Below, piece after piece: positions 1 through 12,615 of a stretch of DNA of 12,615 nt. Numbering within the stretch: the first letter of the stretch is position 1; each line of letters opens with the position of its first letter. The stretch comes from Candidatus Hodarchaeota archaeon. Its GTDB lineage: Archaea > Asgardarchaeota > Heimdallarchaeia > Hodarchaeales > Hodarchaeaceae. Location of the stretch: contig JAEOTQ010000161.1 of assembly GCA_016839785.1 (NCBI GenBank), positions 1 through 12,615 of the forward strand, in the 5' to 3' direction. A program made the translations under genes and the position numbers. The notes under the pieces were generated by a model. It saw only the letters and a program-made list of their open reading frames with translations, was not told the DNA's origin and ran no database searches.

Positions 1-2
1 AG

Positions 3-86
3 TTCGCACGACTCGCGGAACTAAAGAAAAAGTACGATCCATCGAACTTTTTCAGTTTGAATAGGAACATCAAACCAAAATCATAA
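3..86 (+). CDS. 3' end (partial) of FAD-binding oxidoreductase with berberine-bridge-enzyme (BBE)-like C-terminal motif
   Basis: Not in the ORF track. Frame 3 reads FARLAELKKKYDPSNFFSLNRNIKPKS*, matching the RLxxxKxxYDPxNxFxxNxNI C-terminal signature of BBE-like flavoproteins. Gene begins before the window. Confidence 0.85.
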   Translation, partial: FARLAELKKKYDPSNFFSLNRNIKPKS

Positions 87-342: not shown

Positions 343-538
343 GGGATAAAACGTAAATGAAAATTCAAGAAGGCAAGCCAAAGGTTATCAAGTTGATTTA
401 ATCAGAGTGTGCGAGTTTCCTCATATATTTCTTTTTCCTCCCCTTTTTCTCCTTTTAATGGTATGAGTTTTAGATATATTTAATGAAAAGAATGCATGTT
501 TTAAGAAAAAAAGACATATTAGGATTCGCTTGGTTCAG

Positions 539-651
539 GTATATACCCTAGTATATACTTTTGGAATCTAAACCAGCCTTTTACGGAGTTCACGAATAAA
601 ACTATATACCTCAGTATATTCTTATGTAATCTAACCAGCATGGACAACGTT
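539..651 (+). repeat. dispersed intergenic site, copy A (two tandem units: 539-590 and 602-651)
   Basis: GTATATAC CCTA GTATATAC TTTTGGAAT CTAAACCAGCC TTTTACGGA GTT, linker CACGAATAAAA, then CTATATAC CTCA GTATATTC TTATGTAAT CTAACCAGC ATGGACAAC GTT. Confidence 0.95.
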
Positions 652-825
652 CGAGTTAATAAATTTTTATCATTTCATGAGAGAAAATGTAATTATTTAT
701 GTCTACATGAATTTTTACAGGTGGGAAGTATTAAATATATCGATAAGTAGTTTGAACTCTGAGCTTTTTGATCTTAATTTCTGTGAAAATTAGTTTCCTA
801 GAGTAGGAAAACAAGAGGGATCCGA

Positions 826-3483
826 ATGAAAACACGGAAGAAAATCCAATGGGGAAGCATTAGCTTGCTTCTTCTGTTTATTAGTAGTATGAATTTCCAT
901 CATATCAATTTTAATCCAGTTGATCTCCAAGCACTAAACACATATGAAGATGAAAGAATATTGGGGGGGAGTGTAATGACCTCAGATTATTACCCCGATT
1001 TTACGGGTAACGGAGAAGATTGTAATGTTACTTTACAGCAAACCTTGATTGATTCCTCTCCCATTACGATCTTAAACACTTCTAATCCACTTAACAATAC
1101 TATTTATGAACCCTGTCCTACTGTTGAGAATTTCCCAAGTTCATTTGTGAATATGACTATTGAAGATATCTATGCTCCCAATAAAACCTTAATAATTGAA
1201 GATGGACCTGCAGAGGACATTTCAGATGAATTAGCAACGAAAGCTTACCTAACTTCATTTGCAGCAACGAGCTCTTGTTTACTAACAAATGTTTCCTTTG
1301 AGCTCAGTATAAGTGGATCTCCTATAGTTCATGTTTATTTTTACAATTCAACTTGGAATACGACAGTGAGTCGAAGTGAACCAGATACCAGATCAGAAAC
1401 AATCTTAGCATCTGGGATACCCACCGTTACTGGTTGGTTTGAGTTTGATCTTTTTGATGTTTTCCTAAATAGCTCAAATACAAAAAACAATACATGGTTT
1501 ATAGGTCTTTACAGATCAGGAGGAGCAGGTACTGCTAGATGGCGATTTAAATATACTGGTACAGACAATTCTGAGGTCTATTGGTATGATGGTCTATATT
1601 TAACACATCTTGACGTATATTACTTATGTAAAGTGGGATTAGCTCCCTATATTTCTCCTCACAATCAAACCTTAATCATTGAGGATGGTACTAATAATGG
1701 GCTCGAATTACTTTCAGGAATGCCTGAAGCTACATCATTTTGGATCAAAGGTAATGGATATTTGGAGAATATATCTGTGTATCTAAGAAATCCAACAGCC
1801 AATACTGCAACAATAAGATTCGATTTGTTCAGTTCTAAATGGAATAGCACGGAATCGAGAAGTCAACCTGTAGGTGGTCCTTTAGGCTTTCAATTAGGTC
1901 TATTTACAATAGAGGCTTCGAGTGAAGGATGGATGGGTATTACAAGAATACATGAATTTCTAAATAATTCAAATACTGAGAATAATACATGGTTCATTGG
2001 TGTGTTTAAATCAGGAACAGCAGCTCCTGTCTGGATGTTTACCCGTGACGATGTAAATGGAGACAATTCTGAGAGTAATTTTTATAATAATACTGCTAAT
2101 AAATGGCAATTAAGACAAGATGGTTTTTATAGAACAAGAGATTATCACTTAAAAGTCGATTTAAGTTTTATAGATAATATCCCATCGAAAATCGGGTTAA
2201 AAATAAATGATATTCCCGTTACTGGGCATACTAAAATTTATGGAGCGGGTTTTTGGGTCTCAGCAGATCAATACTCTAATCTATCAGGGAACTTAAACTT
2301 CACTTTAACGGCGGATTGGTGGGATGTGTCCTGTACAATAACTTTTGTTCAGATAGTTTATGCGAAAACTGATGTAAAAGCGAATTCAGATTTCACGGTT
2401 GCAGAAAGTAGTCAAGAGGTATTATGGAATGTAACTGATGCTGAAGGATTAAATTATCTTGATCCCCGCATTAATAAAACATCAATGATCAATTTCACTG
2501 TTCCTATCAGCTGGTATAATATTAACGTGTTTAATGGAACGATAAATAGAACTGATGATATTTCATTAAGACCTCTCAATAATGGATATTGTGAAGTTTG
2601 TGTATTGTATGCTGGAACTGGAAATTGGTTTTTAACCGCCTCCTCTGTGAATCTCCTAGAATCGATTGATTCTTATAGAGGATCAAGCCCAGAAAACATA
2701 TTTAATTATTCAAACATTGTGGATTTCAATGTTAGTTTTAAAGAAACAGTATTCCAAAATGACGGGTTACTTAATTTAAGTGTTTATAGTCCAGCTCTAA
2801 TTAATGATCTTTTAAACTTTACATTGGTCAAAACTGTTTTTGGTACAGGTCAAGAGATCTCTCTCGGAGATTGGGATGTCTCAGATACTGTCACTCAATA
2901 TGGGGCCTTTCGAGTACAAGTATCTTGGTTTAATAAGACAGCAGTAGGATTCTTAGAAGACTCTCTCACCATTGTCGGAGAATCGGAATTAATACTAATC
3001 GAACCAATTCAACACGCTATATTTGATCCAGATCAGCAGTTCAATATTATTGTATATTATGAGGATATTAATTTACATAAACCAATTGATGGTGCTGTTA
3101 TTAATTTTAACATCGCAAATCAAGGTTGGGAAGCAACTACGACAACTAACGGCACAACTGGCTACTATCTAATTCCTGTGGATTGTAGTGAATTACCCTC
3201 CAGTGGAGAAAAGCGTGTGGAAATTACTGCCACCCGAGAGTTCTATTCTACTCAAGCTCTTGAATACATTTTTGAACTTAGTGAAGGTACAACCACTACA
3301 ACTACAACAACTACTACTCAATCCGATACCAGTACGAGTGCTACTACCACCACTACTACACAAACGACAACCTCTATATCAATAACGACAACAACAGAAA
3401 CAGGTACTTTTCCTGGTATATTCCTAATTCTTGTTTCTTTTGCTGCTCTAGTGATTGTTATTCGTAGATTTAAGAAGACGTAA
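826..3483 (+). CDS. large secreted/cell-surface glycoprotein with duplicated domain, Thr-rich linker and C-terminal membrane anchor
   Basis: 885-aa ORF. Basic plus hydrophobic N-terminus (MKTRKKIQWGSISLLLLFISS), many N-x-S/T sequons, internal repeat (aa 119-272 and 280-446), poly-Thr linker, then FPGIF + hydrophobic helix + RRFKKT. GAGGG lies shortly before the ATG. Confidence 0.9.
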   Translation: MKTRKKIQWGSISLLLLFISSMNFHHINFNPVDLQALNTYEDERILGGSVMTSDYYPDFTGNGEDCNVTLQQTLIDSSPITILNTSNPLNNTIYEPCPTVENFPSSFVNMTIEDIYAPNKTLIIEDGPAEDISDELATKAYLTSFAATSSCLLTNVSFELSISGSPIVHVYFYNSTWNTTVSRSEPDTRSETILASGIPTVTGWFEFDLFDVFLNSSNTKNNTWFIGLYRSGGAGTARWRFKYTGTDNSEVYWYDGLYLTHLDVYYLCKVGLAPYISPHNQTLIIEDGTNNGLELLSGMPEATSFWIKGNGYLENISVYLRNPTANTATIRFDLFSSKWNSTESRSQPVGGPLGFQLGLFTIEASSEGWMGITRIHEFLNNSNTENNTWFIGVFKSGTAAPVWMFTRDDVNGDNSESNFYNNTANKWQLRQDGFYRTRDYHLKVDLSFIDNIPSKIGLKINDIPVTGHTKIYGAGFWVSADQYSNLSGNLNFTLTADWWDVSCTITFVQIVYAKTDVKANSDFTVAESSQEVLWNVTDAEGLNYLDPRINKTSMINFTVPISWYNINVFNGTINRTDDISLRPLNNGYCEVCVLYAGTGNWFLTASSVNLLESIDSYRGSSPENIFNYSNIVDFNVSFKETVFQNDGLLNLSVYSPALINDLLNFTLVKTVFGTGQEISLGDWDVSDTVTQYGAFRVQVSWFNKTAVGFLEDSLTIVGESELILIEPIQHAIFDPDQQFNIIVYYEDINLHKPIDGAVINFNIANQGWEATTTTNGTTGYYLIPVDCSELPSSGEKRVEITATREFYSTQALEYIFELSEGTTTTTTTTTTQSDTSTSATTTTTTQTTTSISITTTTETGTFPGIFLILVSFAALVIVIRRFKKT
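3289..3408 (+). repeat. low-complexity ACN-codon tract encoding a Thr/Ser-rich linker
   Basis: Encodes TTTTTTTTTTQSDTSTSATTTTTTQTTTSISITTTTETGT. Confidence 0.9.
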
Positions 3484-3505
3484 TTTTGTCTTCTTTCCTT
3501 TTTTA
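3484..3505 (+). terminator. pyrimidine/oligo-T terminator candidate
   Basis: TTTTGTCTTCTTTCCTTTTTTA directly after the stop codon. Confidence 0.45.
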
Positions 3506-3511
3506 TGCTTT

Positions 3512-3560
3512 GTATATACCCGAGTATATACTTTTGTAATCTAAACCAGCCTTTTACGAC
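3512..3560 (+). repeat. dispersed intergenic site, copy B (single unit lacking terminal GTT)
   Basis: GTATATAC CCGA GTATATAC TTTTGTAAT CTAAACCAGCC TTTTACGAC, after which similarity ends. Confidence 0.95.
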
Positions 3561-3629
3561 AGGATATTAGGCTAAGAAAACTGAAATCTAGATCAATAAC
3601 ATCTAATGCTTGGGAACTTAGACATCTAC

Positions 3630-3635
3630 TTATAA
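3630..3635 (+). promoter_or_regulatory. possible TATA box for a leaderless nfi transcript
   Basis: TTATAA 24-29 nt upstream of the ATG at 3659, with no obvious SD motif. Weak evidence in AT-rich DNA. Confidence 0.3.
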
Positions 3636-3658
3636 GATTACATTCTTAGTAGAAAAAC

Positions 3659-4357
3659 ATGGGTTCGATAGAGCTAGAACCGTGGATAGAAAAACTTATT
3701 CCTCCAAATTTGGTAGATCACTTTAAGACTCTCCGTAAAGAACAGTTAACCATGCAAAAAAGACTGATTATTAAAGATCATCCTTCTTTATCAAAGATTT
3801 CCCTCGTGGCAGGCTGTGATGTTTCATATTTCTCCAATGGTGATGCCTGTGCTGGTATAGCGGTTCTAGAAACCCCTAGCTTAACGCTGCTGGAATATGT
3901 ATTTCATATTTACACACCCAAGATTGACTATGTCCCTACATTTCTCGCATACCGAGAAGCACCAGGCTTAGTTGTGGCATACAAGAAATTACATAATAAA
4001 CCAGATCTAATTCTAGTTGATGGAAATGGGATTCTTCACCCTCACAAGTTGGGAATTGCATCTTATCTAGGAATTACTCTGAATAAACCATCCATAGGGG
4101 TTGCCAAGCGTCTCTTGATAGGAACCTTTGATGAACATCGCCTAGCAATAAATAAGACTACTTCCATTATGTATAAAAATCTAGAAATCGGAACAGCAAT
4201 GCTTACCCATCAAAACTACAACCCAATTTATATTTCACCTGGAAATCACCTTTCTATTCAGACTGCAACATCCCTTATCCCACGTTATACACGTCAACGT
4301 TTGCCAGAGCCTATTAGATTAGCAGATAAACTTACTCGAGATACCGTGAATGATTAG
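3659..4357 (+). CDS. nfi: endonuclease V (deoxyinosine 3' endonuclease)
   Basis: Motifs VAGCDVSY, YVPTFLAYRE (wedge plus catalytic Glu), ILVDGNGILHP..LGIAS, IGVAK, PIYISPG, RLPEPIRLAD; 232 aa. Confidence 0.96.
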   Translation: MGSIELEPWIEKLIPPNLVDHFKTLRKEQLTMQKRLIIKDHPSLSKISLVAGCDVSYFSNGDACAGIAVLETPSLTLLEYVFHIYTPKIDYVPTFLAYREAPGLVVAYKKLHNKPDLILVDGNGILHPHKLGIASYLGITLNKPSIGVAKRLLIGTFDEHRLAINKTTSIMYKNLEIGTAMLTHQNYNPIYISPGNHLSIQTATSLIPRYTRQRLPEPIRLADKLTRDTVND

Positions 4358-4360
4358 AAT

Positions 4361-4390
4361 CTTTTACAGAGTTCAGAAAACTATTTACTG
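4361..4390 (+). repeat. degenerate right-half fragment of the dispersed site
   Basis: CTTTTACAGAGTTCAGAAAACTATTTACTG aligns with gaps to CTTTTACGGAGTTCACGAATAAAACTATATACTG of copy D. Confidence 0.65.
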
Positions 4391-4397
4391 TCTTAAT

Positions 4398-4419
4398 AAC
4401 TCAAAACTCGATTTGAGTT
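4398..4419. terminator. hairpin between convergent genes
   Basis: AACTCAAA-actcga-TTTGAGTT, a perfect 8-bp stem between the nfi stop (4357) and the convergent stop (4446). Confidence 0.4.
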
Positions 4420-4445
4420 GTATGTAACAGAATAAATGCTAGGTC

Positions 4446-4892
4446 TTATTTTCTTCTTCTTTTTTCCCAATGAAGTTTAAAACTACTGCTAAACAAAATG
4501 AGAATAATAAAAACAGCGATGGTATCAAATGACCCTGTCGTGAAGGTGGTAGATGTTATCTGTGATGTAGTTGATATTGTTCCCGATGTAGTTTCGGAGG
4601 AGGTAATACATACTGGAGAATAGAACAGCACTTCACCAGAATTCTTGATTACTAATAACTTAAAACCATGATAGATAGCCTGACCATCAGTTAAACACGT
4701 TATATTTATAGGAATATAAGCAAAGTCGAGAAAGGACTCTTCCTCGATAGGGGGAAATCTAATAATCACAGAAGGCTCATTCTTATCTAAATGGGTATAC
4801 CGAGTATCACGTTCAAGTCCATAAAAGTAGTTTCACCAAAGAATAGACTTGAAATTTAACAGCTCGATAATTTTTATCCCCGATTGGTCTTT
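4446..4892 (-). pseudogene. 5'-truncated remnant of a surface protein (Ser/Thr linker, TM helix, basic tail)
   Basis: The listed ORF 4446-4769 starts at GTG with no signal peptide but ends TSSETTSGTISTTSQITSTTFTTGSF + TM + KRRRK. The frame stays open upstream to 4832, has one TGA (4833-4835), then is open to 4892, the edge of repeat copy C. Confidence 0.55.
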
Positions 4893-4933
4893 CTAAACCA
4901 GCCTTTTACGGAGTTGGCGAAAAACATTTTTAC
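4893..4933 (+). repeat. dispersed intergenic site, copy C (right half plus decayed linker)
   Basis: CTAAACCAGCC TTTTACGGA GTT (4893-4915, identical to copy A), then GGCGAAAAACATTTTTAC, similar to CACGAATAAAACTATATAC. No adjacent GTATATAC boxes upstream. Confidence 0.9.
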
Positions 4934-5034
4934 TATTTTAATTTATGATATTTTTTCAATTAAACAATGATTTGGGATCCCAAACAACTAAACCTCCCCC
5001 CATTTCGCAATTAATACAAATTCTTGTCTCATTA

Positions 5035-6876
5035 TCAAGTTCTTTCAGAAATTCGTTTGGGATTTCTTTCCCACATCTTTACCAGTTTATGCGCGTTTTC
5101 TGCGTATGCTATAATTTCGTCCTCATTTTGGTAAAGTCTTTTATGGATCATCCGGTTAATCAAACCTTCCAGCTGAGTTAATTTGATCCTCTCACTCATT
5201 GTGGGTTGCTCTTCGACGATTTTTTCCCATGTACTTAACTGCTTGATCAACGAATCGTGTTCAATGGAGATAATCTTCTCCAACCTCCCTAAGTTCTTTT
5301 CCTTAGTAATTAGGTGGGCTTGAGTCAATAAATCTCTAGCTTCATGCAAGTTCAGTTCCATTAACTGCAGTTTGGATTGGATAAGATAAGTTTCTGCAAG
5401 TAACCAATAGGAGTTCTGATCCTTCGCCATCTTGAGTAGTTTATTGGTGAGGTTTTTCAATTCGTTTAAAGCTGCTTCATTACCCGTGGTTTCTAACTCA
5501 AATAATAGTAATTCGCACAAATTAATTGTTGCTTCTACAGTAAGCTCAAACCAAACAATTTTTTCCTCTACAATCTGCCGAAAGATTGATTGAGCAGTTC
5601 CCATATCGACCAATCTCCCTTGTGATTTCAGAACAATTGCCTCAGCCAGACGACACTTCTGATTAGTCTGAGCAAAACCACTTTGCTGTCGCTTGATAAC
5701 TTTTAATTCATCTAAATAGCTCGTGACTGTACTGGGAGGAAGTATATGAACAAACAGACGGATTAAGCTGTATAGGATTTCAGCTATCATATCTACATTC
5801 TCGAGTTCTCTGGCAATGCTTAAAGACTTTTCAAAACTTTCAATAGCAGTTTTAAAATCACTTTTTTCGCCATAAAAACATCCGAGATTATTAAGAGCGA
5901 TAGCGGTACCCAAACGACGCTCAATTCTCTCAAATATTATTAAGCTTTTCTGTTGATACTCAATAGTTTGATCTAGCTCACCCTTATAACTGTAAATTAT
6001 ACTGATATTGTTGAGAGTACTAGCCATGCCAAGCTGGTTACCAATTGTTTCATTTATGGTCAAACTCTTCTGGTAAATTTCATTTGCCTTATCTAACTCA
6101 CCTTTACTAAGATAGGTATTTCCAATGACTCTGAAAGAGCGCGCTAGCCCGTATTGATCTCCAATTGCCTCGCAAATAGCAACGCTTTTTTGGACATACT
6201 CGTATGCTAAAGATAGATCTCCTATCCTGATATAATACTCTGCCATAAGGCGATATGAGTTGGCTTCTTCCTGTTGGTCTCCGATTGCTTCACTAATGGC
6301 TAGACATCTCTGACTACATTCTAATATTTGATCTCGTTCATTTGTTGTTACATAATAATCTCCTATTCTTGTCAGGGATTGAGCAATACCTGCTTTGTCA
6401 TTTATTTCTTCTCTCAACGAAAGGCTTTTTCCTAAAAATTTTATTGACTCCTCCATCTTAGATTGAGTTAAAAGAATAGAACCTTTTTGATAAAAGAATA
6501 AGGCTTTTTTCTTTTTCGACAAAGGTTGATTCATCGTAAGAATTTTAACTAGTTTTTCTCCTCTCCTTATAATTTGTATTCCTGCGTTTATTTCTCCTAG
6601 TCCTTGAAAGGCCCAACTGATGTTGATAAGGGCATCGAATTCTCTTTCTTGGGCTCCAACCTCCTTACTTTCATCTAAAAGTTGTTCTGCAACGACTTTT
6701 CCATCTTTGAACTTCCCAATCCTCAAATAAAGAGTACTTTTCAGGTATCTCAAAGCTAGTAACTGGTTTTTTGTTAGTTGGTCTGATCGTTCAAGAATTT
6801 CTATCTCTTCTAGTGCTTCTTTGAATTTCGCTTGATCCATTAACTGCTCAATTTTCCCAAAATTTTGTTCAGACAA
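5035..6876 (-). CDS. tetratricopeptide-repeat (TPR) protein
   Basis: 613 aa, with repeated ~40-aa helical units such as A.SL..IG..Y...G.LD.A.E.YQKSL.I.E.IG. TTG start preceded by GAGGGT SD-like motif; alternative ATG at codon 13. Confidence 0.92.
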   Translation of the reverse strand: MSEQNFGKIEQLMDQAKFKEALEEIEILERSDQLTKNQLLALRYLKSTLYLRIGKFKDGKVVAEQLLDESKEVGAQEREFDALINISWAFQGLGEINAGIQIIRRGEKLVKILTMNQPLSKKKKALFFYQKGSILLTQSKMEESIKFLGKSLSLREEINDKAGIAQSLTRIGDYYVTTNERDQILECSQRCLAISEAIGDQQEEANSYRLMAEYYIRIGDLSLAYEYVQKSVAICEAIGDQYGLARSFRVIGNTYLSKGELDKANEIYQKSLTINETIGNQLGMASTLNNISIIYSYKGELDQTIEYQQKSLIIFERIERRLGTAIALNNLGCFYGEKSDFKTAIESFEKSLSIARELENVDMIAEILYSLIRLFVHILPPSTVTSYLDELKVIKRQQSGFAQTNQKCRLAEAIVLKSQGRLVDMGTAQSIFRQIVEEKIVWFELTVEATINLCELLLFELETTGNEAALNELKNLTNKLLKMAKDQNSYWLLAETYLIQSKLQLMELNLHEARDLLTQAHLITKEKNLGRLEKIISIEHDSLIKQLSTWEKIVEEQPTMSERIKLTQLEGLINRMIHKRLYQNEDEIIAYAENAHKLVKMWERNPKRISERT

Positions 6877-7029
6877 TTAGTTTACCCTCAGTTACTTGAC
6901 CTAACATCTTCATATCAGTTGTAATAAGAAAACTTGCTTGATACAAAAGAAGGATTCTTAATATATTTTTCTAGAAATATTCAGAAATTCTCTGGTTTAT
7001 CTTCAATTTGAATTCCGATTCTTAATAAT

Positions 7030-7049
7030 TCAGAATAGATCTAATCTGA
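7030..7049. promoter_or_regulatory. 20-bp near-perfect palindrome, candidate operator
   Basis: TCAGAATAGATCTAATCTGA, 9 of 10 symmetric pairs, in the divergent TPR / HTH intergenic region. Confidence 0.35.
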
Positions 7050-7241
7050 GAGATAATTTTGCTTAGCATCACGAACTTTTTTTTATTTATCTCAAATAAA
7101 CAATAAGATCAACAAAGACAGAAAAAGCATATGAGACAAAAGAGGAGCCTAATAAATCATATTGTGAGGAAATAAATAATTTTTCCATTTCTGTCTTGCG
7201 TCAGGAAAAGAAAAAGAATAATTAAAATCTGTTTTCGAGTG

Positions 7242-7327
7242 TTAATCCAGCCTTTTACGGAGTTCACGAATAAAACTATATACTGTGGTATATACCATTC
7301 CTATCTAAACCAGCCATGGACGACGTT
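7242..7327 (+). repeat. dispersed intergenic site, copy D (right half + linker + full second unit)
   Basis: TTAATCCAGCC TTTTACGGA GTT CACGAATAAAA CTATATAC TGTG GTATATAC CATTCCTAT CTAAACCAGCC ATGGACGAC GTT. 7247-7283 is identical to 573-609 (37 bp). Confidence 0.95.
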
Positions 7328-7583
7328 CATTTATCCAAGATATGTTATTTTAGATTACTTCCTGGACTAGATGATTTCTATCAGCATTGATGAATAATTT
7401 TAATCCAATACGTGGTAATTTCCTCTCTTTTTTGGAGCGCATTTCGTATGTATTTTGTACCAAAAATAATTCTCCTTATTATTTTAGAATATTTTTAATT
7501 CTCCTTGTGAAATTACCATTGCCTGCAATTCAGGATGTTCATAAGAATTTTATGAGTCTCCAAGCAATTGGGAATTAATCAAA

Positions 7584-8183
7584 ATGACTCTTAAGAAATA
7601 TAAACAAATCTTTGAAGCATTAGATAACGAAAGACGAATAGAGTTGTTTGAATATATCCTGCAAAGAATTTTCATTTCAAAAAGTGAACTAGCCAAGAAG
7701 TATGATCTCAATCGTGCAAGCCTGAACCATCACTTAAAGATTATGTTGAACGCAGGCATAATATTCGAAAGAGGACTCATTCTTGATGGGCGAAAGCAAA
7801 TATTCATTACTCCTGCAGTCGTTCTACATCCAGATCGACTTATTGAACCAATGGAAGAATACCAAAATTTCGCAGAACAGTTAGAGGAATGGACTAGACG
7901 GAATCTAACAGCTGATACGTGGCAAATATTAAAGGAGGAGTTAAATAGACACGAAATTTCCCCAAATATTGTTGATATAGTTGAGATTCGCTTATTTCCG
8001 TCACTAATGAAACGAGTGTCAACTACAACTGAATATTGCTACATCTGCAGAACAGAAGAAGCACGAAGCTCTTGTAATACCTGTAAAAACTTGATTTGTA
8101 AGACTCATGAGCACAAAATCAAGCGAGAAGGCGAAGAAACAATTACTCTATGTCCAAACTGCGTGGAAAAGTTTTTTGGATGA
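7584..8183 (+). CDS. ArsR/SmtB-like winged-helix transcriptional regulator with C-terminal Cys/His zinc-finger domain
   Basis: N-terminal IFEALDNERRIELFEYI...SELAKKYDLNRASLNHHLKIMLNAGII (ArsR-type HTH). C-terminal C-x2-C-x8-C-x2-C-x4-C-x2-H-x14-C-x2-C. Confidence 0.85.
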   Translation: MTLKKYKQIFEALDNERRIELFEYILQRIFISKSELAKKYDLNRASLNHHLKIMLNAGIIFERGLILDGRKQIFITPAVVLHPDRLIEPMEEYQNFAEQLEEWTRRNLTADTWQILKEELNRHEISPNIVDIVEIRLFPSLMKRVSTTTEYCYICRTEEARSSCNTCKNLICKTHEHKIKREGEETITLCPNCVEKFFG

Positions 8184-8258
8184 AATTTTCCTAAATTGGA
8201 AGAAATCATTAAAGAACCAGTTTTATAAAAAAAGAGGAAGTTAGCTAAAGAAGTTTCT

Positions 8259-10649
8259 TTAGCCAATAATTCTACTTACAGTTTCTTCAGAAATTGTCGC
8301 CTGAAAGAGTGATCGGAGAGAGAAATAAGTAGCTAAAATAATTCCTAGGCACACATTCACAACTGTAATTGCAATACTGACTGGTGATAACTCAAAAACA
8401 AAAATCACACCAAGTGTTGCTGCCCAATCATACAGTAAGTCTATCATAAATACACTACCAATAAAACCAAAAACTACACCACCAACTCCAGTGATTATAA
8501 GTTCTAGTAGGATATTTGTAAATATTTCCTTGTTTGAAACTCCTAATGCTCTAAAGTTGATGAAATCGTATTTTCGTTCAGAAATCGAAATGGAAATTAC
8601 CGTTACTGCAATAGAAACTCCAACTAATAGACCAGCAATTAATGCAAGTAAAATTAGTACCATAGCTAAGCTATTAACTAAATCAATAGTTTCCTTGAGA
8701 TCATTCTTGTTAATAACTTTGTACACTTGGGACTCTAATTCAATTTTTGACGAAAGCTGATCTGGATCTGAAGTCTTGATGTAAATGGCGTTTGAGCTAT
8801 TATCCTCTAATTGAACTAGCATACGCGCTGTATCGATTGTACAGTAAATCCCTGATCCAGTGAGTTCATTTAGTATGTTTCCTATTGTTAAGGTGTATTC
8901 TTCATTTAAAACTTTGATTTTGATATTATCTCCCGATCTAACTTTAAAGTTCAGTGCTAAATCTTTAGTTATTATAAGTTCTCCTTCTGCAGGAAATATA
9001 TCATTATCAAAACGCCGCATATCAGAATTGAGAGTCAGTCCTGTCAAACTGTAAATTCGTGACAAGTCTTGTGAAAACCGAATTGGAACAAGTAACGCTA
9101 ACTCACTTTCATCGATCTTTCCTGCATTCTCTTGAAGTAAAGCCGAAATTTGGCTATCATTTTGATAATTACTAAAAATTACCTGAATATCCCAATTTTG
9201 ATAATAATCCATTTGTTTATCAAAACCTGAATAATAATTAATGGTGATATTTGACCCAAAGAACGAAACAAACGTTGCTAGAAAGATACCCGCTAGAACA
9301 AAGTACGATTTCCTCTTTTCTTGGAAAATAGAGCGAATTGAGAATTTTGAGAGAGGAGAAAGGGGACGAAACTTAGTTGTAAAACGTTCAAGTAGGGTCA
9401 ATTTACCTGGTTGGAATTTTGCTACAGGTTTCATTGCGTCTAATGGTCGCATCTGGAAAATTTTTCTAACGGCTAAGATGGAGCTTACTGATGTCAAGAC
9501 ACAGGTAAGAAGAAAATAGCTTATTGCAGGTAATAATGAAACCACACCTAAGGTTTTTACACTTGGCAGTTTTTTTATCCCAGATAATTCAAAAATCATA
9601 TAATCGCTTAAGCTTATTCCGATTATCGCGCCACATACGGAACCAATAATCCCGCCAATCAAGCTGATGATCAAAGAATAGAAAATTGTGCTTACCATTA
9701 GTTCACGATTTGTAAACCCTAAAGATTTGAACAGACCTAGAATAGGAAGCTCTTCTTCAATTGTTCTTTTCAGGACAATAAATAGTAAGATCGCAGCTAT
9801 CCCAGTAAAAGTTATAGCCATTATAACAGCCATACCTAGTAACTCTAAACCTATTACATCTATGTAGAAATTTCTTCCCTCAGTATTTAATATGTTTTTT
9901 TCGCCTAGTACTGTAAAGAGTTCTCCTAGAAACAAATTTTTCTCGGAAGGATCATCAAAATGAAATGCTACTTGATTAGCTTTGACTTCATTATTTGTAA
10001 CACTCAATAAATCAGCATACCGCATCCAAATTACAGGCCCAGACCAAAAATCAAAAAATTCACTAGCGGCAGCTCCAGGTGCTACCATGTATTCAGGTGA
10101 ATCCACATGAGCTATTGTACTCACAATGAAAGGTTCAGATTGTGGAACGTTAGGTGTGATTGTAAGGTGCCCACCAATTTGCCAATCATTAAGTTCAGCT
10201 GTGAATTTGTCAACTATTGACACGTTGGAAGAATTAGAATCATATAAAGTCTCAATTACACCTGTATGGTAATATAACTTATCTACATGTAACGGACGAG
10301 AACTATTTACTCCGTAAAGTCGTGTAGTAATCCCTGTTTCTCCTGTATCTTTACTAACTTTAACTTCAATAAAAGATCGGACTTCAAAATCAGGATCTAT
10401 CCCTGAGTTCATCATCGCTTGGTGCACAAGTTGGGTTAGATCTGTTACATCTGTGGGAGTAACTGTTACTAGAAGATGATGATACCTAAGATTTCCCCAA
10501 GAAGCATTGGTAGCTTCAGCCCATGTGAGATAAACATTACTGTACATGATTGCGGCCATACCACCTATAATAATGACAATGAATATAGGAATAGATCGAA
10601 TTTTCCTTCGTTTCAAATCCCTCCAAGCCTTCAGAAAAAATAACTTCAT
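8259..10649 (-). CDS. ABC transporter permease, FtsX/MacB/LolE-like with two permease repeats
   Basis: N-terminal KAWRDLKRRK + TM, a large extracytoplasmic domain and ILGLFKSLGFTNREL, then a second repeat with ISERKYDFINFRALGVSNKEI. Start placed at ATG 10649 rather than TTG 10655 because GAGGT lies 7 nt upstream. Confidence 0.92.
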   Translation of the reverse strand: MKLFFLKAWRDLKRRKIRSIPIFIVIIIGGMAAIMYSNVYLTWAEATNASWGNLRYHHLLVTVTPTDVTDLTQLVHQAMMNSGIDPDFEVRSFIEVKVSKDTGETGITTRLYGVNSSRPLHVDKLYYHTGVIETLYDSNSSNVSIVDKFTAELNDWQIGGHLTITPNVPQSEPFIVSTIAHVDSPEYMVAPGAAASEFFDFWSGPVIWMRYADLLSVTNNEVKANQVAFHFDDPSEKNLFLGELFTVLGEKNILNTEGRNFYIDVIGLELLGMAVIMAITFTGIAAILLFIVLKRTIEEELPILGLFKSLGFTNRELMVSTIFYSLIISLIGGIIGSVCGAIIGISLSDYMIFELSGIKKLPSVKTLGVVSLLPAISYFLLTCVLTSVSSILAVRKIFQMRPLDAMKPVAKFQPGKLTLLERFTTKFRPLSPLSKFSIRSIFQEKRKSYFVLAGIFLATFVSFFGSNITINYYSGFDKQMDYYQNWDIQVIFSNYQNDSQISALLQENAGKIDESELALLVPIRFSQDLSRIYSLTGLTLNSDMRRFDNDIFPAEGELIITKDLALNFKVRSGDNIKIKVLNEEYTLTIGNILNELTGSGIYCTIDTARMLVQLEDNSSNAIYIKTSDPDQLSSKIELESQVYKVINKNDLKETIDLVNSLAMVLILLALIAGLLVGVSIAVTVISISISERKYDFINFRALGVSNKEIFTNILLELIITGVGGVVFGFIGSVFMIDLLYDWAATLGVIFVFELSPVSIAITVVNVCLGIILATYFSLRSLFQATISEETVSRIIG

Positions 10650-10667
10650 TTTCAAAACCTCTATAAG

Positions 10668-11408
10668 TTATATTTTTTCAATGGCTGGAGCAGTTGTGAG
10701 GGTGTCCCAAAACTCTTCTTCTTTAGCTCGATCATAGGCTGAAGTTCCGAAGATCTTGCCATCTCGTAAATAAATGACTTTATCCGCTAGATATGAAATT
10801 CCAACGTTGTGGGTAATCAGTATCATCGTAACATTGTGATCTTTGTTAATTTTTTTAAGTAATTTCAATATTTTCCCAGTTGCTTCACTATCTAGATTCC
10901 CTGTTGGTTCATCAGCTAATAATATCTTAGGTTTTTTAGCTAATGCTCTTGCAATAGCTACTCGTTGTTGTTCCCCACCACTTAGCTGTGATGGGAATTT
11001 ATTGAATTTATCCCCTAAACCAACTTCTTCTAGTAAGTCTTTTGTTATTTTTCGTGCTTCATCCGAAGAATTGGTCAGCTTGGCTGCTAGTTCAACATTT
11101 TCAAATGCAGTTAAGGAACCTACAAGATTGTAAAATTGAAAAATAAATCCTACATTTTTCCGTCGATATTGAGTCAATTCCTTCTCAGAAAGTGAAGACA
11201 CTTCCAAATCATGGAATTGAATTGTACCCTCTGTTGGACTATCAATAGCTCCAATTAGGTTAAGAAATGTCGTTTTTCCTGAACCAGAAGGTCCTAATAC
11301 TGCGATAAACTGTCCTTCCTCAATGGAAATGGTGATCTCCTGAAGAGCAGGAACAGTTAATTCACCCATTTTATAACTTCTTGATAACTCTTTTATTTGT
11401 AGTGACAT
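10668..11408 (-). CDS. ABC transporter ATP-binding protein (LolD/MacB-like family)
   Basis: Walker A GPSGSGKT, GFIFQFYNL, signature LSGGEQQR, Walker B ILLADEPTGNLD, H-loop ITH. Short gap to the permease suggests an operon. Confidence 0.97.
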   Translation of the reverse strand: MSLQIKELSRSYKMGELTVPALQEITISIEEGQFIAVLGPSGSGKTTFLNLIGAIDSPTEGTIQFHDLEVSSLSEKELTQYRRKNVGFIFQFYNLVGSLTAFENVELAAKLTNSSDEARKITKDLLEEVGLGDKFNKFPSQLSGGEQQRVAIARALAKKPKILLADEPTGNLDSEATGKILKLLKKINKDHNVTMILITHNVGISYLADKVIYLRDGKIFGTSAYDRAKEEEFWDTLTTAPAIEKI

Positions 11409-11564
11409 GATGATTTACCACCAGATAGCGACTTTTAATGAGGATTTTTATAGTAAATAGGAAAATAAGAGTTTTTTACCCTAATTTCTATCTCATTTCA
11501 ATAGGTAAACATATGTTTCCAGATCATCGTAAATATTATACAAGGATTCGGTGTTTTTGAATTT

Positions 11565-11615
11565 TTGGACAAAGTTGAGGTAAATACTATTGTACCTTAT
11601 TTTGAGAAACTAGCC
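11565..11615 (+). repeat. probable decayed copy (F) of the dispersed site
   Basis: TTGGACAAA GTT (compare TTAGACAAAGTT and ATGGACAACGTT), GAG, then GTAAATAC TATT GTAC CTTATTTTG AGAAACTAGCC. This reads as box-N4-box (with ATAT deleted)-N9-core. Confidence 0.45.
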
Positions 11616-11855
11616 AGAGGATAAACTCACTCCAAAAAAACGCTAACTCGGAGAGTATTAACCTTCCACTATGAGTAAAATCACAATTGAAGCGTCTATT
11701 CATTCTTTGTTTCGTATGGAGCAATTCGATATCTTCTACAATCTTTGTGTTAGAGAAGGGAAGAATTTTTGTTATAAGTGTAAACAAGAAGGATGTTAAT
11801 TTAAAGAATAGATTAAATCACTAACTTCCGTACTCAAAGTTGAATAGATTTCAAG

Positions 11856-11907
11856 ATATATACCCTAGTTTATACTTTTGTCATCTAAACCAGCCTTAGA
11901 CAAAGTT
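11856..11907 (+). repeat. dispersed intergenic site, copy E (single full unit)
   Basis: ATATATAC CCTA GTTTATAC TTTTGTCAT CTAAACCAGCC TTAGACAAA GTT. Confidence 0.93.
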
Positions 11908-12263
11908 AGTAAAAAATTAAAAAAAAAGAAAAAAGCATCTATGACACTTTTTCACTAACGAATCGTCATTTAAGATTGAGAATTTGAAAAAATCGATTCA
12001 CTTTTCTCGAAAACGGGTAGATCTTCACCTATCAGATTTAAAAAGCATTCAAACGATTTTAACTGCAATAGCTTGCGATTAACTTTCTCCTGAGTCCCAG
12101 AAGTCCATCTCCTTATAGATAAGTCTTTTACTTGAGTCTTAATTGCAGTAACCTATATTTTTTTAAACTTCAATGAGCTACATTTTGTTGTACTTTAAGA
12201 TCAATCCCGCTTGTTGTGTGTTTAAATAGAGTTACTTGTGCACTAGAACGGCAGGTGAAAATA

Positions 12264-12615
12264 ATGAAAAGAAATGGGATTTTTTGCATCATAGTACTAT
12301 TGTCTGTATTATTATCATTCTTTGTCACGGCTCTCATCCTATTGACTGAAACGGATGAATCTGAAACGGATGAATCTGAAACGGATGAATCTGGAGTTGT
12401 TCCCGAATTTAAAGATCATATTATACAAAGTGGATTAGATGGTCCTCTCTATGTATCAACAATAGATTTAGACCAGGATACCGATAATGATATTTTAGTA
12501 ACAATCTTTCACGGGAACAAAGTTGTTTGGTATGAGAATAGAGGGAATAAAAGTTTTCAGGAACATGTTATCGATAAGGATTGTAGACAAGCAGTTTGTG
12601 TTCATGGAACCGATC
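12264..12615 (+). CDS. membrane-anchored/secreted FG-GAP (VCBS-like) repeat protein, 5' partial
   Basis: Not in the ORF track because it runs off the end. GGTGA SD at 12254-12258. Reads MKRNGIFCIIVLLSVLLSFFVTALILL-T-(ETDES)3-...IDLDQDTDNDILV...VVWYENRGNKSFQEHVID, with a DxDxDxxxD Ca-binding loop and WYEN motif. Confidence 0.88.
   Translation, partial: MKRNGIFCIIVLLSVLLSFFVTALILLTETDESETDESETDESGVVPEFKDHIIQSGLDGPLYVSTIDLDQDTDNDILVTIFHGNKVVWYENRGNKSFQEHVIDKDCRQAVCVHGTD
12346..12393 (+). repeat. perfect 15-bp tandem repeat x3.2 (CTGAAACGGATGAAT)
   Basis: Copies at 12346, 12361 and 12376 plus CTG; in frame, encoding ETDES x3. Confidence 0.97.

What the first reader, a model, noticed from the sequence alone, without database searches (positions are those of the whole stretch)
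539..11907. Polarised ~52-bp site in nearly every intergenic region: candidate non-canonical gene-cassette (integron-like) array
Seen: consensus GTATATAC-N4-GTATATAC-N9-CTAAACCAGCC-N4-AC-N3-GTT. Full or near-full units are at 539, 602, 3512, 7276 and 11856; half-sites at 4361, 4893 and 7242; a decayed copy at 11565-11615. Spacer lengths (4, 9, 9) are kept while spacer sequence varies (CCTA/CTCA/CCGA/TGTG; TTTTGGAAT/CATTCCTAT), as expected for protein-bound DNA with fixed geometry. All copies I found are on the + strand and intergenic, between tandem, divergent and convergent genes alike, so they do not track promoters or terminators. They separate unrelated single genes or small modules. Established: integron sites are co-oriented, separate unrelated genes and recombine at G/TT, and attI has a 5-bp spacer before GTT plus upstream accessory repeats. 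From memory, attI1 ends CCCTAAAACAAAGTT, close to CCTTAGACAAAGTT in copy E; this needs verifying. Inference: these are recombination sites of a cassette-shuffling system whose enzyme lies outside the window. Alternatives are a REP/MITE-like non-autonomous repeat or a replication-polarised binding motif.
Basis: partly seen in the sequence, partly recalled or inferred. Interest (0 to 1): 0.9.

Follow-up and report, generated by a model that had tools for sequence, protein, structure and literature searches.

The report
Polar repeat bounding archaeal gene cassettes
A 55-base, one-directional DNA motif sits between almost every gene module in one variable region of a Hodarchaeum-type Asgard archaeal genome and marks where modules are swapped between species, much like an integron cassette array but without the integron's hallmark sites or enzyme.

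Summary
The ~55-nt unit (two GTATATAC boxes, TTTT-N5, invariant ATCTAAACCAGCC, variable 6 nt, G-N-R-GTT) has 24 significant copies in the 4.04-Mb genome. All lie on 5 contigs (52 kb) and are co-oriented per contig. It occurs in 20 of 21 other congeneric genomes (relatives are titled Hodarchaeota/Hodarchaeum) and in 0 of 61 genomes of 17 other genera of the class. In 24 loci, 98 of 98 copies share their locus's orientation, and 97 of 98 are intergenic. Neighbouring genes point either way (52 of 94 downstream genes co-oriented), so it is not a simple promoter or terminator.

The stretches between copies are self-contained modules: cbiMNQO-nikR, ArsR-ABC, VapBC, HepT/MNT, DinB and endonuclease V. 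The same modules recur in other species with different neighbours. Sequence 3' of the invariant core is inherited with the downstream module, which places the exchange point in or at the edge of the core.

It is not a canonical integron: there is no attC-type fold, no IntI, and cassette genes run in both orientations. No recombinase is linked to it; a XerA-type enzyme is the only tyrosine recombinase found throughout. The best reading is a non-canonical cassette-exchange site (confidence about 0.5). The mechanism is inferred, not shown.

The parts
537..596 (+). Full repeat unit, type 1 (boxes, TTTT-N5, CTAAACCAGCC, TTTTAC, GGAGTT)
   Evidence: nhmmer E=9.6e-17; CM 78.3 bits
600..659 (+). Repeat unit, type 2 (central ATGGAC; core has a 1-nt deletion), in tandem 63 nt after the type-1 unit
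   Evidence: nhmmer E=1.5e-4; CM 46.7 bits; alignment A1
826..3483 (+). Module: 885-aa secreted or surface protein with an internal duplication, a Thr-rich linker and a C-terminal hydrophobic anchor. Orthologues in G008 and a metagenome contig are also flanked by repeats.
   Evidence: (no Pfam family)
3510..3569 (+). Full repeat unit, type 1. Its tail (ACGACAGG...) continues into the endonuclease-V module and is shared with the G014 and G002 orthologous junctions.
3659..4357 (+). Module: endonuclease V
   Evidence: PF04493, E=9.3e-60; orthologues in G014 and G002 with repeats beside them
4361..4381 (+). Remnant of the 3' part of a unit (CTTTTACAGAGTTCAGA), 3 nt after the endonuclease-V stop codon
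   Evidence: direct reading; fuller copies at the orthologous place in G014 and G002; not detected by nhmmer
4891..4917 (+). Half unit (core and tail, no boxes)
   Evidence: nhmmer E=3.7e-5, profile positions 32-58
5035..6876 (-). Module: 613-aa TPR protein
   Evidence: PF13424 and other TPR families
7242..7266 (+). Half unit (TTAATCCAGCC variant of the core plus tail), followed 63 nt later by a type-2 unit
   Evidence: (E=0.13)
7274..7333 (+). Full repeat unit, type 2 (central ATGGAC)
   Evidence: nhmmer E=2.1e-12; CM 63.3 bits
7584..8183 (+). Module gene: ArsR-type winged-helix protein with a C-terminal zinc-ribbon-like region
   Evidence: weak HTH_5/HTH_24 matches; NF033788, 28.9 bits, below cut-off
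8259..11408 (-). Module genes: FtsX-type permease (798 aa) and ABC ATPase (246 aa). Orthologous pair in at least 7 congeners at loci without repeats.
11577..11600 (.).
   Evidence: 7-species alignment
11854..11913 (+). Full repeat unit, type 1, with the variant tail TTAGACAAAGTT
   Evidence: nhmmer E=1.5e-13; CM 69.4 bits
12216..12614 (+). Start of the next module (FG-GAP-like repeat protein, runs off the contig). Homology to relatives starts at 11923, just after the repeat.

Best explanation
The unit is a polar, protein-recognised exchange (att-type) site. It delimits self-contained gene modules in a hypervariable chromosomal array of one Asgard genus (Hodarchaeum-like).

Proposed anatomy:
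- Left side: an accessory part made of two 8-bp palindromic boxes 12 bp apart plus a T-run.
- Middle: an invariant 13-bp common core, ATCTAAACCAGCC.
- Right side: a short arm (6 variable nt plus G-N-R-GTT).

Proposed working: modules are excised, inserted or replaced by breakage and joining, or by short-homology recombination, inside or at the 3' edge of the common core. After an exchange the left part of a site stays with the upstream module and the right part with the downstream module. Because the site is asymmetric, every event keeps the sites co-oriented, whichever way the genes inside a module point.

Shown: clustering, polarity, genus-wide conservation, reuse of modules with changed neighbours, and linkage of the right part to the downstream flank.

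Inferred: that a recombinase acts here, which one it is (a XerA-type enzyme is the only tyrosine recombinase found in all genomes checked), and that the boxes bind an accessory factor.
For: 1. Clustering. 24 of 24 nhmmer hits at E<0.01 lie on 5 of 248 contigs (C163 8, C123 6, C20 8, C67 1, C142 1). These stretches total 52,283 of 4,041,893 nt.

2. Polarity. 98 of 98 hits in 24 loci from 10 genomes lie in their locus's majority orientation. Downstream genes are co-oriented in 52 of 94 cases and upstream genes in 49 of 89.

3. Conservation. Matches occur in 20 of 21 other congeneric genomes and in 0 of 61 genomes of 17 other genera of the class. Copy number ranges from 1 to 25.

4. Modules reused with different neighbours:
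- cbiMNQO-nikR in 4 genomes;
- endonuclease V in 3;
- a VapBC pair in 3;
- DinB in 3;
- the surface protein in 3.

5. Exchange point. Among 124 unique copies, the 20 pairs sharing only the downstream flank are 0.80 identical over +8..+19 after the core, against 0.61 background (MWU p=2e-6; pairs are not independent). Pairs sharing only the upstream flank score 0.65. The 4 pairs whose upstream homology reaches the site are 0.82-1.0 identical in the left variable part, against 0.58 background.

6. Fixed locus. The distal flank of the array is syntenic in G000:C163, G014:C142 and G019:C220.

7. Content. Modules carry their own regulators, and toxin-antitoxin pairs are frequent. Ghaly et al. report toxin-antitoxin genes as typical of integron cassettes (PMC9668308, passages read).

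8. Median spacing between sites is 1354 bp, IQR 874-2841.
Against: - No recombinase is linked to any array. PF00589 matches in G000 and 10 relatives all lie on other contigs, or at least 167 kb away in the one-contig genome G010. tblastn of two G000 recombinases against all loci fetched up to then hit only their own locus.
- In the one-contig genome G010 the 7 hits at E<=0.1 are dispersed over 0.2-3.4 Mb, 4 on + and 3 on -. Two contigs have one copy of three in the opposite orientation (G003:C97; L077).
- One VapBC module is inverted relative to its flanking sites in G019 compared with G000 and G002 (87% identity over 764 bp). Simple excision and integration does not predict this.
- Overall, pairs sharing only the upstream flank show no excess identity in the left part (0.556 against 0.579).
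- An exchange mapped to the longest invariant stretch is also what plain homologous recombination between repeats would give.
- Some junctions between orthologous modules lie away from any site, for example upstream of G002 endonuclease V. A sample variant lacking window 4467-7179 has breakpoints about 60-85 nt from the nearest half-sites.
- No circular or excised form was seen (contigs only, low depth).
Confidence: 0.5

Rival explanations
1. The unit is a host cis-element: an operator, promoter or insulator, or an architectural site bound by a winged-helix or other dimeric factor at the palindromic boxes. It is kept by selection at the boundaries of accessory modules. Module shuffling is then a by-product of ordinary homologous recombination between these conserved 55-nt repeats.
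For: - Full-length copies are conserved even in species with 1-3 copies.
- Copies are no more alike within than between genomes (0.622 against 0.620; 840 of 2000 permutations as high). So each copy is held to a genus-wide consensus rather than homogenised.
- A similar palindrome sits in the conserved ABC-operon upstream region of 7 species.
- In the DinB module of 3 genomes the start codon lies about 20 nt upstream of box 1, the right distance for the box to act as a TATA element for a leaderless antisense gene (the geometry is inferred).
- In type-2 units an ATG sits about 25 nt after box 2 and opens small ORFs of 24-47 codons (direct reading).
- The exchange point in the longest invariant stretch fits homologous recombination.
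Against: - The unit's orientation is unrelated to gene direction (52 of 94 and 49 of 89).
- Most co-oriented downstream starts lie 100-350 nt away.
- At least endonuclease V keeps its own conserved TATA-like element 27 nt from the ATG in a species that lacks the unit.
- A regulatory role does not explain why 98 of 98 copies are co-oriented within loci, nor why copies are confined to 1.3% of the genome.
- Many truncated half-copies exist, which suggests no host-level selection on each copy.
Confidence: 0.25
2. The unit is a non-autonomous mobile element or solo end (MITE, REP or PATE-like, for example an IS200/IS605-type hairpin end). It inserts into intergenic DNA with a strand bias.
For: - The two boxes can form an 8-bp hairpin followed by a T-run.
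- Copy number varies from 1 to 25 between species, and truncated copies are common.
- A TnpB-type element fragment abuts one copy.
Against: - Y1 HUH transposase (PF01797) is found in 2 of 22 congeneric genomes, while the unit is in 21 of 22.
- No terminal inverted repeats or target duplications can be seen around units (direct reading of the alignments).
- Copies are clustered, not dispersed.
- Hairpin pairing is not supported beyond the conservation of each box: 75.0% paired against 73.4% in shuffles, with 103 of 500 shuffles as high.
- The right part of the unit is inherited with the downstream flank. A unit that inserts as one piece would not behave so.
Confidence: 0.1
3. It is a canonical integron cassette array without a nearby integrase (a CALIN), with true attC sites as reported for Asgard archaea.
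For: - Co-oriented sites lie between cassettes, toxin-antitoxin genes are frequent, and GTT is moderately conserved at the 3' end.
- Ghaly et al. 2022 report integrons enriched in Asgard genomes, most of them CALINs (PMC9668308, abstract and passages read).
Against: - No fold pairs the two ends of the site. Only the box hairpin forms, with z-scores from -0.46 to -2.12 on 8 strands.
- Bases after GTT carry no information.
- Cassette genes run both ways.
- The only strong tyrosine recombinase scores 167.6 bits against the integron-integrase model, below its cut-off of 265, and matches in two stretches. It passes the XerA model at 270.5 bits against a cut-off of 220.
Confidence: 0.03

Closest known systems
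Integron cassette arrays without integrase (CALINs), including the archaeal ones of Ghaly et al. 2022 (PMC9668308)
   Same: - Directly repeated, co-oriented sites separate unrelated small modules at a fixed chromosomal place.
- Toxin-antitoxin cassettes are frequent.
- Each site is a hybrid whose two parts belong to the two neighbouring cassettes.
- No linked integrase is present.
   Different: - The site is a conserved sequence of about 55 bp with two palindromic boxes and an invariant core. It is not a structure-defined imperfect hairpin (R''-L''...L'-R').
- The exchange maps 5' of the G-N-R-GTT tail rather than at G/TT.
- Modules are often multi-gene operons with their own regulators and promoters, and they lie in either orientation.
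- Sites are not homogenised within a genome.
- No IntI is found anywhere in the genome.
Xer-dependent elements: IMEX arrays at dif and pdif modules of Acinetobacter plasmids (listing and abstract of PMC11705084 seen; otherwise recalled)
   Same: - Modules, often toxin-antitoxin or accessory genes, are bounded by short recombinase sites and moved by a housekeeping Xer recombinase encoded elsewhere.
- A XerA-type enzyme is the only tyrosine recombinase found in every genome checked here.
- The box pair is an AT-alternating inverted repeat flanked by a T-run. This is loosely like the T. kodakarensis dif printed in PMC11840125.
   Different: - dif is 11-6-11 with TAA-N6-TTA. The boxes read 8-4-8 (ATA-N6-TAT).
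- pdif sites alternate in orientation (recalled), whereas these are all direct.
- The exchange maps to the core 3' of the boxes, not between them.
Lambda-type att sites (a common core plus arm-type accessory sites on one side)
   Same: An identical core shared by all partners, in which exchange occurs, with asymmetric accessory protein-binding repeats that give polarity (established knowledge, recalled).
   Different: There are many tandem sites in one array rather than an attL/attR pair. No integrase or excisionase gene is present in the modules.
REP/BIME elements with RAYT, and IS200/IS605-derived PATEs
   Same: Short intergenic palindrome-containing repeats present in many copies.
   Different: These units are clustered and co-oriented rather than dispersed, and the HUH transposase is absent from 20 of 22 congeners.

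Membership tests
Integron (attC array / CALIN) | attC folds as single-stranded DNA into an imperfect hairpin pairing R'' with R' and L'' with L' | tested here: not met
   DNA folds of 4 units on both strands show only the 8-bp box hairpin. z-scores run from -0.46 to -2.12, and no fold pairs the site's two ends.
Integron (attC array / CALIN) | R' core GTTRRRY with crossover at G/TT | tested here: inconclusive
   GTT is moderately conserved and the bases after it carry no information. The G-N-R-GTT block is inherited with the downstream flank, which places the exchange 5' of it. Resolution is limited by the invariant core.
Integron (attC array / CALIN) | Integron integrase (tyrosine recombinase with the IntI-specific extra domain) in the genome or beside the array | tested here: not met
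   Three PF00589 matches in G000, none on array contigs. The best one is XerA-type (270.5 bits) and falls below the integron-integrase cut-off (167.6 against 265). None lies on repeat contigs of 10 relatives. G000 is 84.5% complete, so absence is not proven.
Integron (attC array / CALIN) | Co-oriented sites separating unrelated cassettes | tested here: met
   98 of 98 copies are co-oriented within 24 loci. Module contents are unrelated.
Integron (attC array / CALIN) | Cassette ORFs generally in one orientation (stated for archaeal integrons in PMC9668308) | tested here: not met
   52 of 94 downstream genes and 49 of 89 upstream genes are co-oriented with the site.
Integron (attC array / CALIN) | [quoted passage not shown] | tested here: not met
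   Identity is 0.622 within and 0.620 between genomes; 840 of 2000 label permutations are as high.
Xer/dif-type site (IMEX, pdif module) | 28-bp site: 11-bp inverted arms, 6-bp spacer, TAA-N6-8-TTA (PMC8371274, PMC11840125) | tested here: not met
   The boxes are GTATATAC-N4-GTATATAC. Read with a 6-bp spacer, the inner ends are ATA/TAT, and only one outer arm (CTTTT) is conserved.
Xer/dif-type site (IMEX, pdif module) | Xer recombinase encoded in the genome | tested here: met
   G000:C174, 303 aa, NF040815 at 270.5 bits against a cut-off of 220. A match of 157-166 bits to PF00589 is present in G000 and in 9 of the 10 relatives searched. G005, 74% complete, lacks it.
Xer/dif-type site (IMEX, pdif module) | Recombinase binds and recombines the site | not testable with these tools
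   Needs EMSA or in-vitro recombination.
REP/RAYT or IS200/IS605-derived repeat | Cognate Y1 HUH transposase in the genomes that carry the repeat | tested here: not met
   PF01797 is found in 2 of 22 congeneric genomes, while the repeat is in 21 of 22.
REP/RAYT or IS200/IS605-derived repeat | Dispersed genome-wide | tested here: not met
   All 24 significant copies lie on 5 contigs covering 1.3% of the genome.
Structured RNA | Match to a known family, or covariation supporting a helix | tested here: not met
   Rfam gives 0 matches at E<=1. For the helix, 103 of 500 shuffles reach the observed pairing and 66 of 500 reach the covariation score.
Promoter or terminator element | Orientation follows the adjacent gene | tested here: not met
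   52 of 94 and 49 of 89.

The most novel reading that the evidence does not exclude
A previously undescribed archaeal cassette-exchange system, restricted so far to the Hodarchaeum-like genus. Its att-type site would consist of two dif-like palindromic boxes plus an invariant 13-bp core, used by the housekeeping XerA recombinase or by an as yet unrecognised enzyme. The system would excise, insert and reorder whole self-regulated operons at one chromosomal locus. These operons include eukaryote-signature genes: a Ras-like GTPase and a CAAX protease with an ICMT-like methyltransferase. It would be functionally analogous to an integron but of independent origin.
Probability: 0.3. Interest if true: 0.9.

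Novelty: new variant of a known kind. Interest (0 to 1): 0.75.

Why it matters
By current phylogenies (as cited in PMC11529989, passage read), Hodarchaeales are the archaeal lineage closest to eukaryotes. How their accessory genome turns over is almost unknown.

If these sites are real exchange points, they define a tractable and searchable mechanism for gene-module flux in that lineage. They would also show that integron-like cassette platforms arose more than once, with a different site logic: a sequence-defined core with one-sided accessory boxes instead of a folded attC.

The array carries whole regulated operons and toxin-antitoxin pairs. It would therefore also explain local assembly fragmentation and species-to-species synteny loss in these MAGs.

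If the unit instead proves to be a regulatory or architectural element, its strict polarity regardless of gene direction would still need a new explanation.

Tried and rejected
- **Rfam** on the window at E<=1: no match.
- **Hairpin covariation** for the two boxes: not above shuffles.
- **Viral contigs:** 0 matches to a 23-nt pattern.
- **Public reads:** no RNA holder was listed. Four DNA runs of one study, held as contigs at low depth, were laid on the window.
  - The three repeat-to-repeat 'joints' (590/592/610 to 3513/3526) are cross-mapping of another copy. The 20 letters between them equal the C163 tandem-unit spacer seen. They are not excision products.
  - One record in run X1 joins 4466 to 7180 with 14 other letters, and X1 has no depth over 5474-7157. 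This is a possible strain variant lacking the TPR module, but its breakpoints are not at the units. No circular form was seen.
- **Contig ends near units:** I considered this as evidence of population heterogeneity and dropped it. With sites every 1-3 kb, a random break is often near one: 13 of 30 ends lie within 350 nt, counted by hand, against roughly a third expected.
- **GC content:** the array is only slightly below the genome (0.343 against 0.361), so there is no clear foreign signal.
- **Intra-genome cassette duplicates:** only an old VapBC duplicate was found (79% over 820 nt on C20). It does not inform on boundaries.
- **Y2 transposase (PF04986):** none in 22 genomes, but the control genomes were silent too, so the result is uninformative.
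- **Serine recombinases:** 0 in G000 and G006, some in G014, G019 and G005, none tied to arrays.
- **Search for a separate dif site:** a scan for 11-6-11 palindromes with TAA-N6-TTA gave 4 candidates at 10 of 11 or better arm complementarity, none followed up. The region upstream of xerA shows nothing repeat-like. This is inconclusive.
- **Single-copy sites** of G016 and G001 are not obviously syntenic with the G000 array.
- **Literature:**
  - Searches for integron/archaea/attC/Asgard, Hodarchaeales with mobile elements, XerA/dif, and Hodarchaeales with integron listed no paper describing this repeat, judged from the listed titles and abstract openings and from the passages read.
  - Passages were read in PMC9668308, PMC2958812, PMC8371274, PMC11529989 and PMC11840125.
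  - Supplementary tables of PMC9668308, which list the genomes with integrons, are closed. I therefore cannot say whether any Hodarchaeum-like MAG was flagged there.
- **IntegronFinder and HattCI** could not be run.
- **attI1 resemblance:** not tested, because attI1 was only recalled.

Full report
**Observation.** The window is a complete 12,615-nt contig (G000:C123) of a 4.04-Mb genome. That genome has 248 contigs, 36% G+C and 84.5% completeness. The motif is there as described.
- The 11-mer CTAAACCAGCC occurs five times, all on the + strand, against 0.13 expected; 0 of 200 shuffles reach 5.
- A profile search finds six window copies at E<0.01 and one weaker half-copy.
- Alignment of 22 copies, and a consensus of 92 copies from ten genomes, give: gTATATAC-CcTa-GTATATAC-TTTT-N5-TCTAAACCAGCC-TTTkAC-GrnGTT. 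Spacings are fixed. Information content is zero before box 1 and after GTT.
- Two sub-types exist. Type 1 has the central hexamer TTTKAC. Type 2 has ATGGAC and usually follows a type-1 unit 62-73 nt downstream.

**Distribution.**
- Genome-wide, all 24 hits at E<0.01 lie on five contigs: C163 (first 21 kb), C123, C20, C67 and C142. Together these are 52,283 nt, or 1.3% of the genome.
- A covariance model finds the unit in 20 of 21 other species of the same genus, with 1 to 25 copies each. It finds none in 61 genomes of 17 other genera of the class.
- Public records holding an exact 23-nt version are all titled Candidatus Hodarchaeota, Hodarchaeum mangrovi or Heimdallarchaeota B3_Heim. None is in the viral collection.
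- In 24 loci from ten genomes, 98 of 98 copies share their locus's orientation, and 97 of 98 lie outside ORFs of 100 aa or more.
- Exceptions: one of three copies on G003:C97, one of three on metagenome contig L077, and the one-contig genome G010. In G010 seven weak-to-good hits are spread over 3 Mb on both strands.

**What it is not.**
- *Promoter or terminator:* orientation is unrelated to the genes. The next downstream gene is co-oriented in 52 of 94 cases and the upstream gene in 49 of 89, so a simple promoter or terminator is excluded.
- *Structured RNA:* Rfam has no match. The box hairpin is not supported by covariation.
- *attC:* single-strand folds show nothing beyond the 8-bp box stem and never pair the two ends of the site.
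- *HUH-mobilised repeat:* Y1 HUH transposases are present in only 2 of 22 congeners.
- *The 'decayed copy' at 11565-11615:* this is a different thing. It is a palindrome conserved upstream of the ABC-ATPase gene in seven species, six of them without any unit there.

**What lies between the units.** Median spacing is 1.35 kb, IQR 0.87-2.84 kb.

The intervals are self-contained modules:
- the surface protein;
- endonuclease V;
- a TPR protein;
- an ArsR-type regulator with an FtsX/ABC exporter;
- on the sister contigs: cbiMNQO with nikR, VapBC-like PIN pairs, DinB, radical-SAM/SPASM with a methyltransferase, RidA, Rce1-like proteases with an ICMT-like methyltransferase, and a Ras-like GTPase;
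- in relatives: HepT/MNT, glyoxalase, dehydrogenases and LRR proteins.

The same modules recur in other species beside units but with different neighbours:
- the cbi operon in four genomes;
- endonuclease V in three;
- DinB in three;
- a VapBC pair in three;
- the surface protein in three.

The distal flank of the array is syntenic in three species. The array therefore sits at a fixed locus while its content changes.

**Where exchange happens.** I compared 124 unique units with full flanks.
- *Pairs sharing only the downstream flank (n=20):* these are 0.80 identical over the 12 nt that follow CCAGCC, against 0.61 for 7,576 background pairs.
- *Pairs sharing only the upstream flank (n=26):* these score 0.65 over the same 12 nt. 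The excess identity begins at the first base after the core.
- *Left variable part (boxes, loop, N5):* there is no overall excess for upstream-sharing pairs. However, the four pairs whose upstream homology reaches the unit are 0.82-1.0 identical there, against 0.58 background.

Examples:
- The DinB units of G006 and G012 are identical up to CCTTTTA and then diverge.
- The endonuclease-V units of G000, G014 and G002 differ on the left and agree from ...TTTTACGACAG onward.

The switch therefore lies within, or at the 3' edge of, the invariant core. The G-N-R-GTT tail belongs to the downstream module, so a G/TT crossover is not supported. This mapping cannot separate enzyme-made exchange from homologous recombination in the longest identical stretch.

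**Enzyme.** No recombinase is linked to any array.
- Tyrosine recombinases of G000 and ten relatives all lie elsewhere.
- The repeat-rich genomes G014, G006 and G004 have only one, a XerA-type protein.
- In G000 that protein passes the XerA model and fails the integron-integrase model.
- Serine recombinases are absent from G000 and G006.
- The flanks of arrays on long contigs hold ordinary accessory genes.
- The box pair loosely recalls archaeal dif (AT-alternating inverted arms next to a T-run). It lacks the TAA-N6-TTA signature given in PMC11840125.

**Points against, or unexplained.**
- One VapBC module is inverted relative to its flanking units in G019.
- G010 shows dispersed copies in mixed orientation.
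- Some module junctions lie away from units.
- In the DinB module, box 1 sits where a TATA box for the leaderless antisense gene would be. Type-2 units carry an ATG that opens small ORFs. The unit may therefore also contribute regulatory signals.

**Verdict.** The cassette-array reading is supported at the level of organisation and comparative genomics. Membership in the integron family is rejected on four tested features: the attC fold, IntI, cassette-gene orientation, and greater within-genome than between-genome site similarity. Evidence on the GTTRRRY core and a G/TT crossover is inconclusive but points against them. The most likely explanation is a non-canonical, genus-specific exchange site whose enzyme is not yet identified (confidence 0.5). 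The main rival is a polar cis-element that merely serves as portable homology (0.25). The literature searches listed no description of this element, judged from the listed titles and abstract openings and from the passages read. The supplements of PMC9668308 could not be seen.

Noticed in passing
window 11500-11600 (and L057-L062): Upstream of the ABC-ATPase gene, 7 species share a half-site ATAGGTAAAC and a palindrome GGTAAAY-N4-6-GTWTACC. This is probably the operator of the exporter operon, possibly for the adjacent ArsR-type protein. It resembles the GTATATAC boxes of the repeat.
   Followed up: partly
G000:C163:16032-16497 (L001) and G000:C67:4717-4971: A dispersed repeat, 86-99% identical to pieces on at least 12 other contigs, holds the C-terminal TNB domain of a TnpB/Cas12f-like protein (PF07282, E=1.2e-23). 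In C163 it is cut off 3-4 nt before box 1 of a repeat unit, whereas the copies on C122 and C1 continue. The orthologous units of G014 and G019 keep a short relic of it.
   Followed up: partly
window 3289-3483: The 885-aa protein ends in a long Thr-rich run, then PGIFLILVSFAALVIVIRRFKKT. This looks like an archaeal C-terminal membrane-anchor or sorting signal (the name is recalled). Neither Pfam nor NCBIfam matched the protein. It also has an internal duplication of about 490 nt (1166-1590 against 1649-2088).
   Followed up: no
window 12346-12393: An 18-nt word (CTGAAACGGATGAATCTG) occurs three times in overlapping register 15 nt apart, inside the FG-GAP-like ORF.
   Followed up: no
G000:C163:7712-11063 and G000:C142:2564-3160: Array modules include eukaryote-style genes. 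These are two Rce1-like CAAX proteases next to an ICMT/PEMT-like methyltransferase, and a Ras-family small GTPase (PF00071, E=4.8e-44). A gelsolin-repeat protein lies just before the first unit of the G002 array.
   Followed up: no
G000:C163:12743-13090 and L027:3735-4046: The ATG in the type-2 unit upstream of cbiM opens a small ORF (47 codons in G000, 33 in G014) whose C-terminal part is conserved in frame. Two direct TTGTCTTACAA repeats before cbiM are conserved in 4 species and may be the NikR operator.
   Followed up: no
window 4467-7179: In run X1 a contig joins 4466 to 7180 with 14 other letters, and no X1 contig covers 5474-7157. Run X2 does cover the TPR gene. This is a possible strain-level presence/absence of that module.
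   Followed up: partly
window 1-86: The contig starts with the last 28 codons of a gene whose end reads like the C-terminus of a berberine-bridge/FAD-oxidase family protein. This is from direct reading and recall and was not tested.
   Followed up: no
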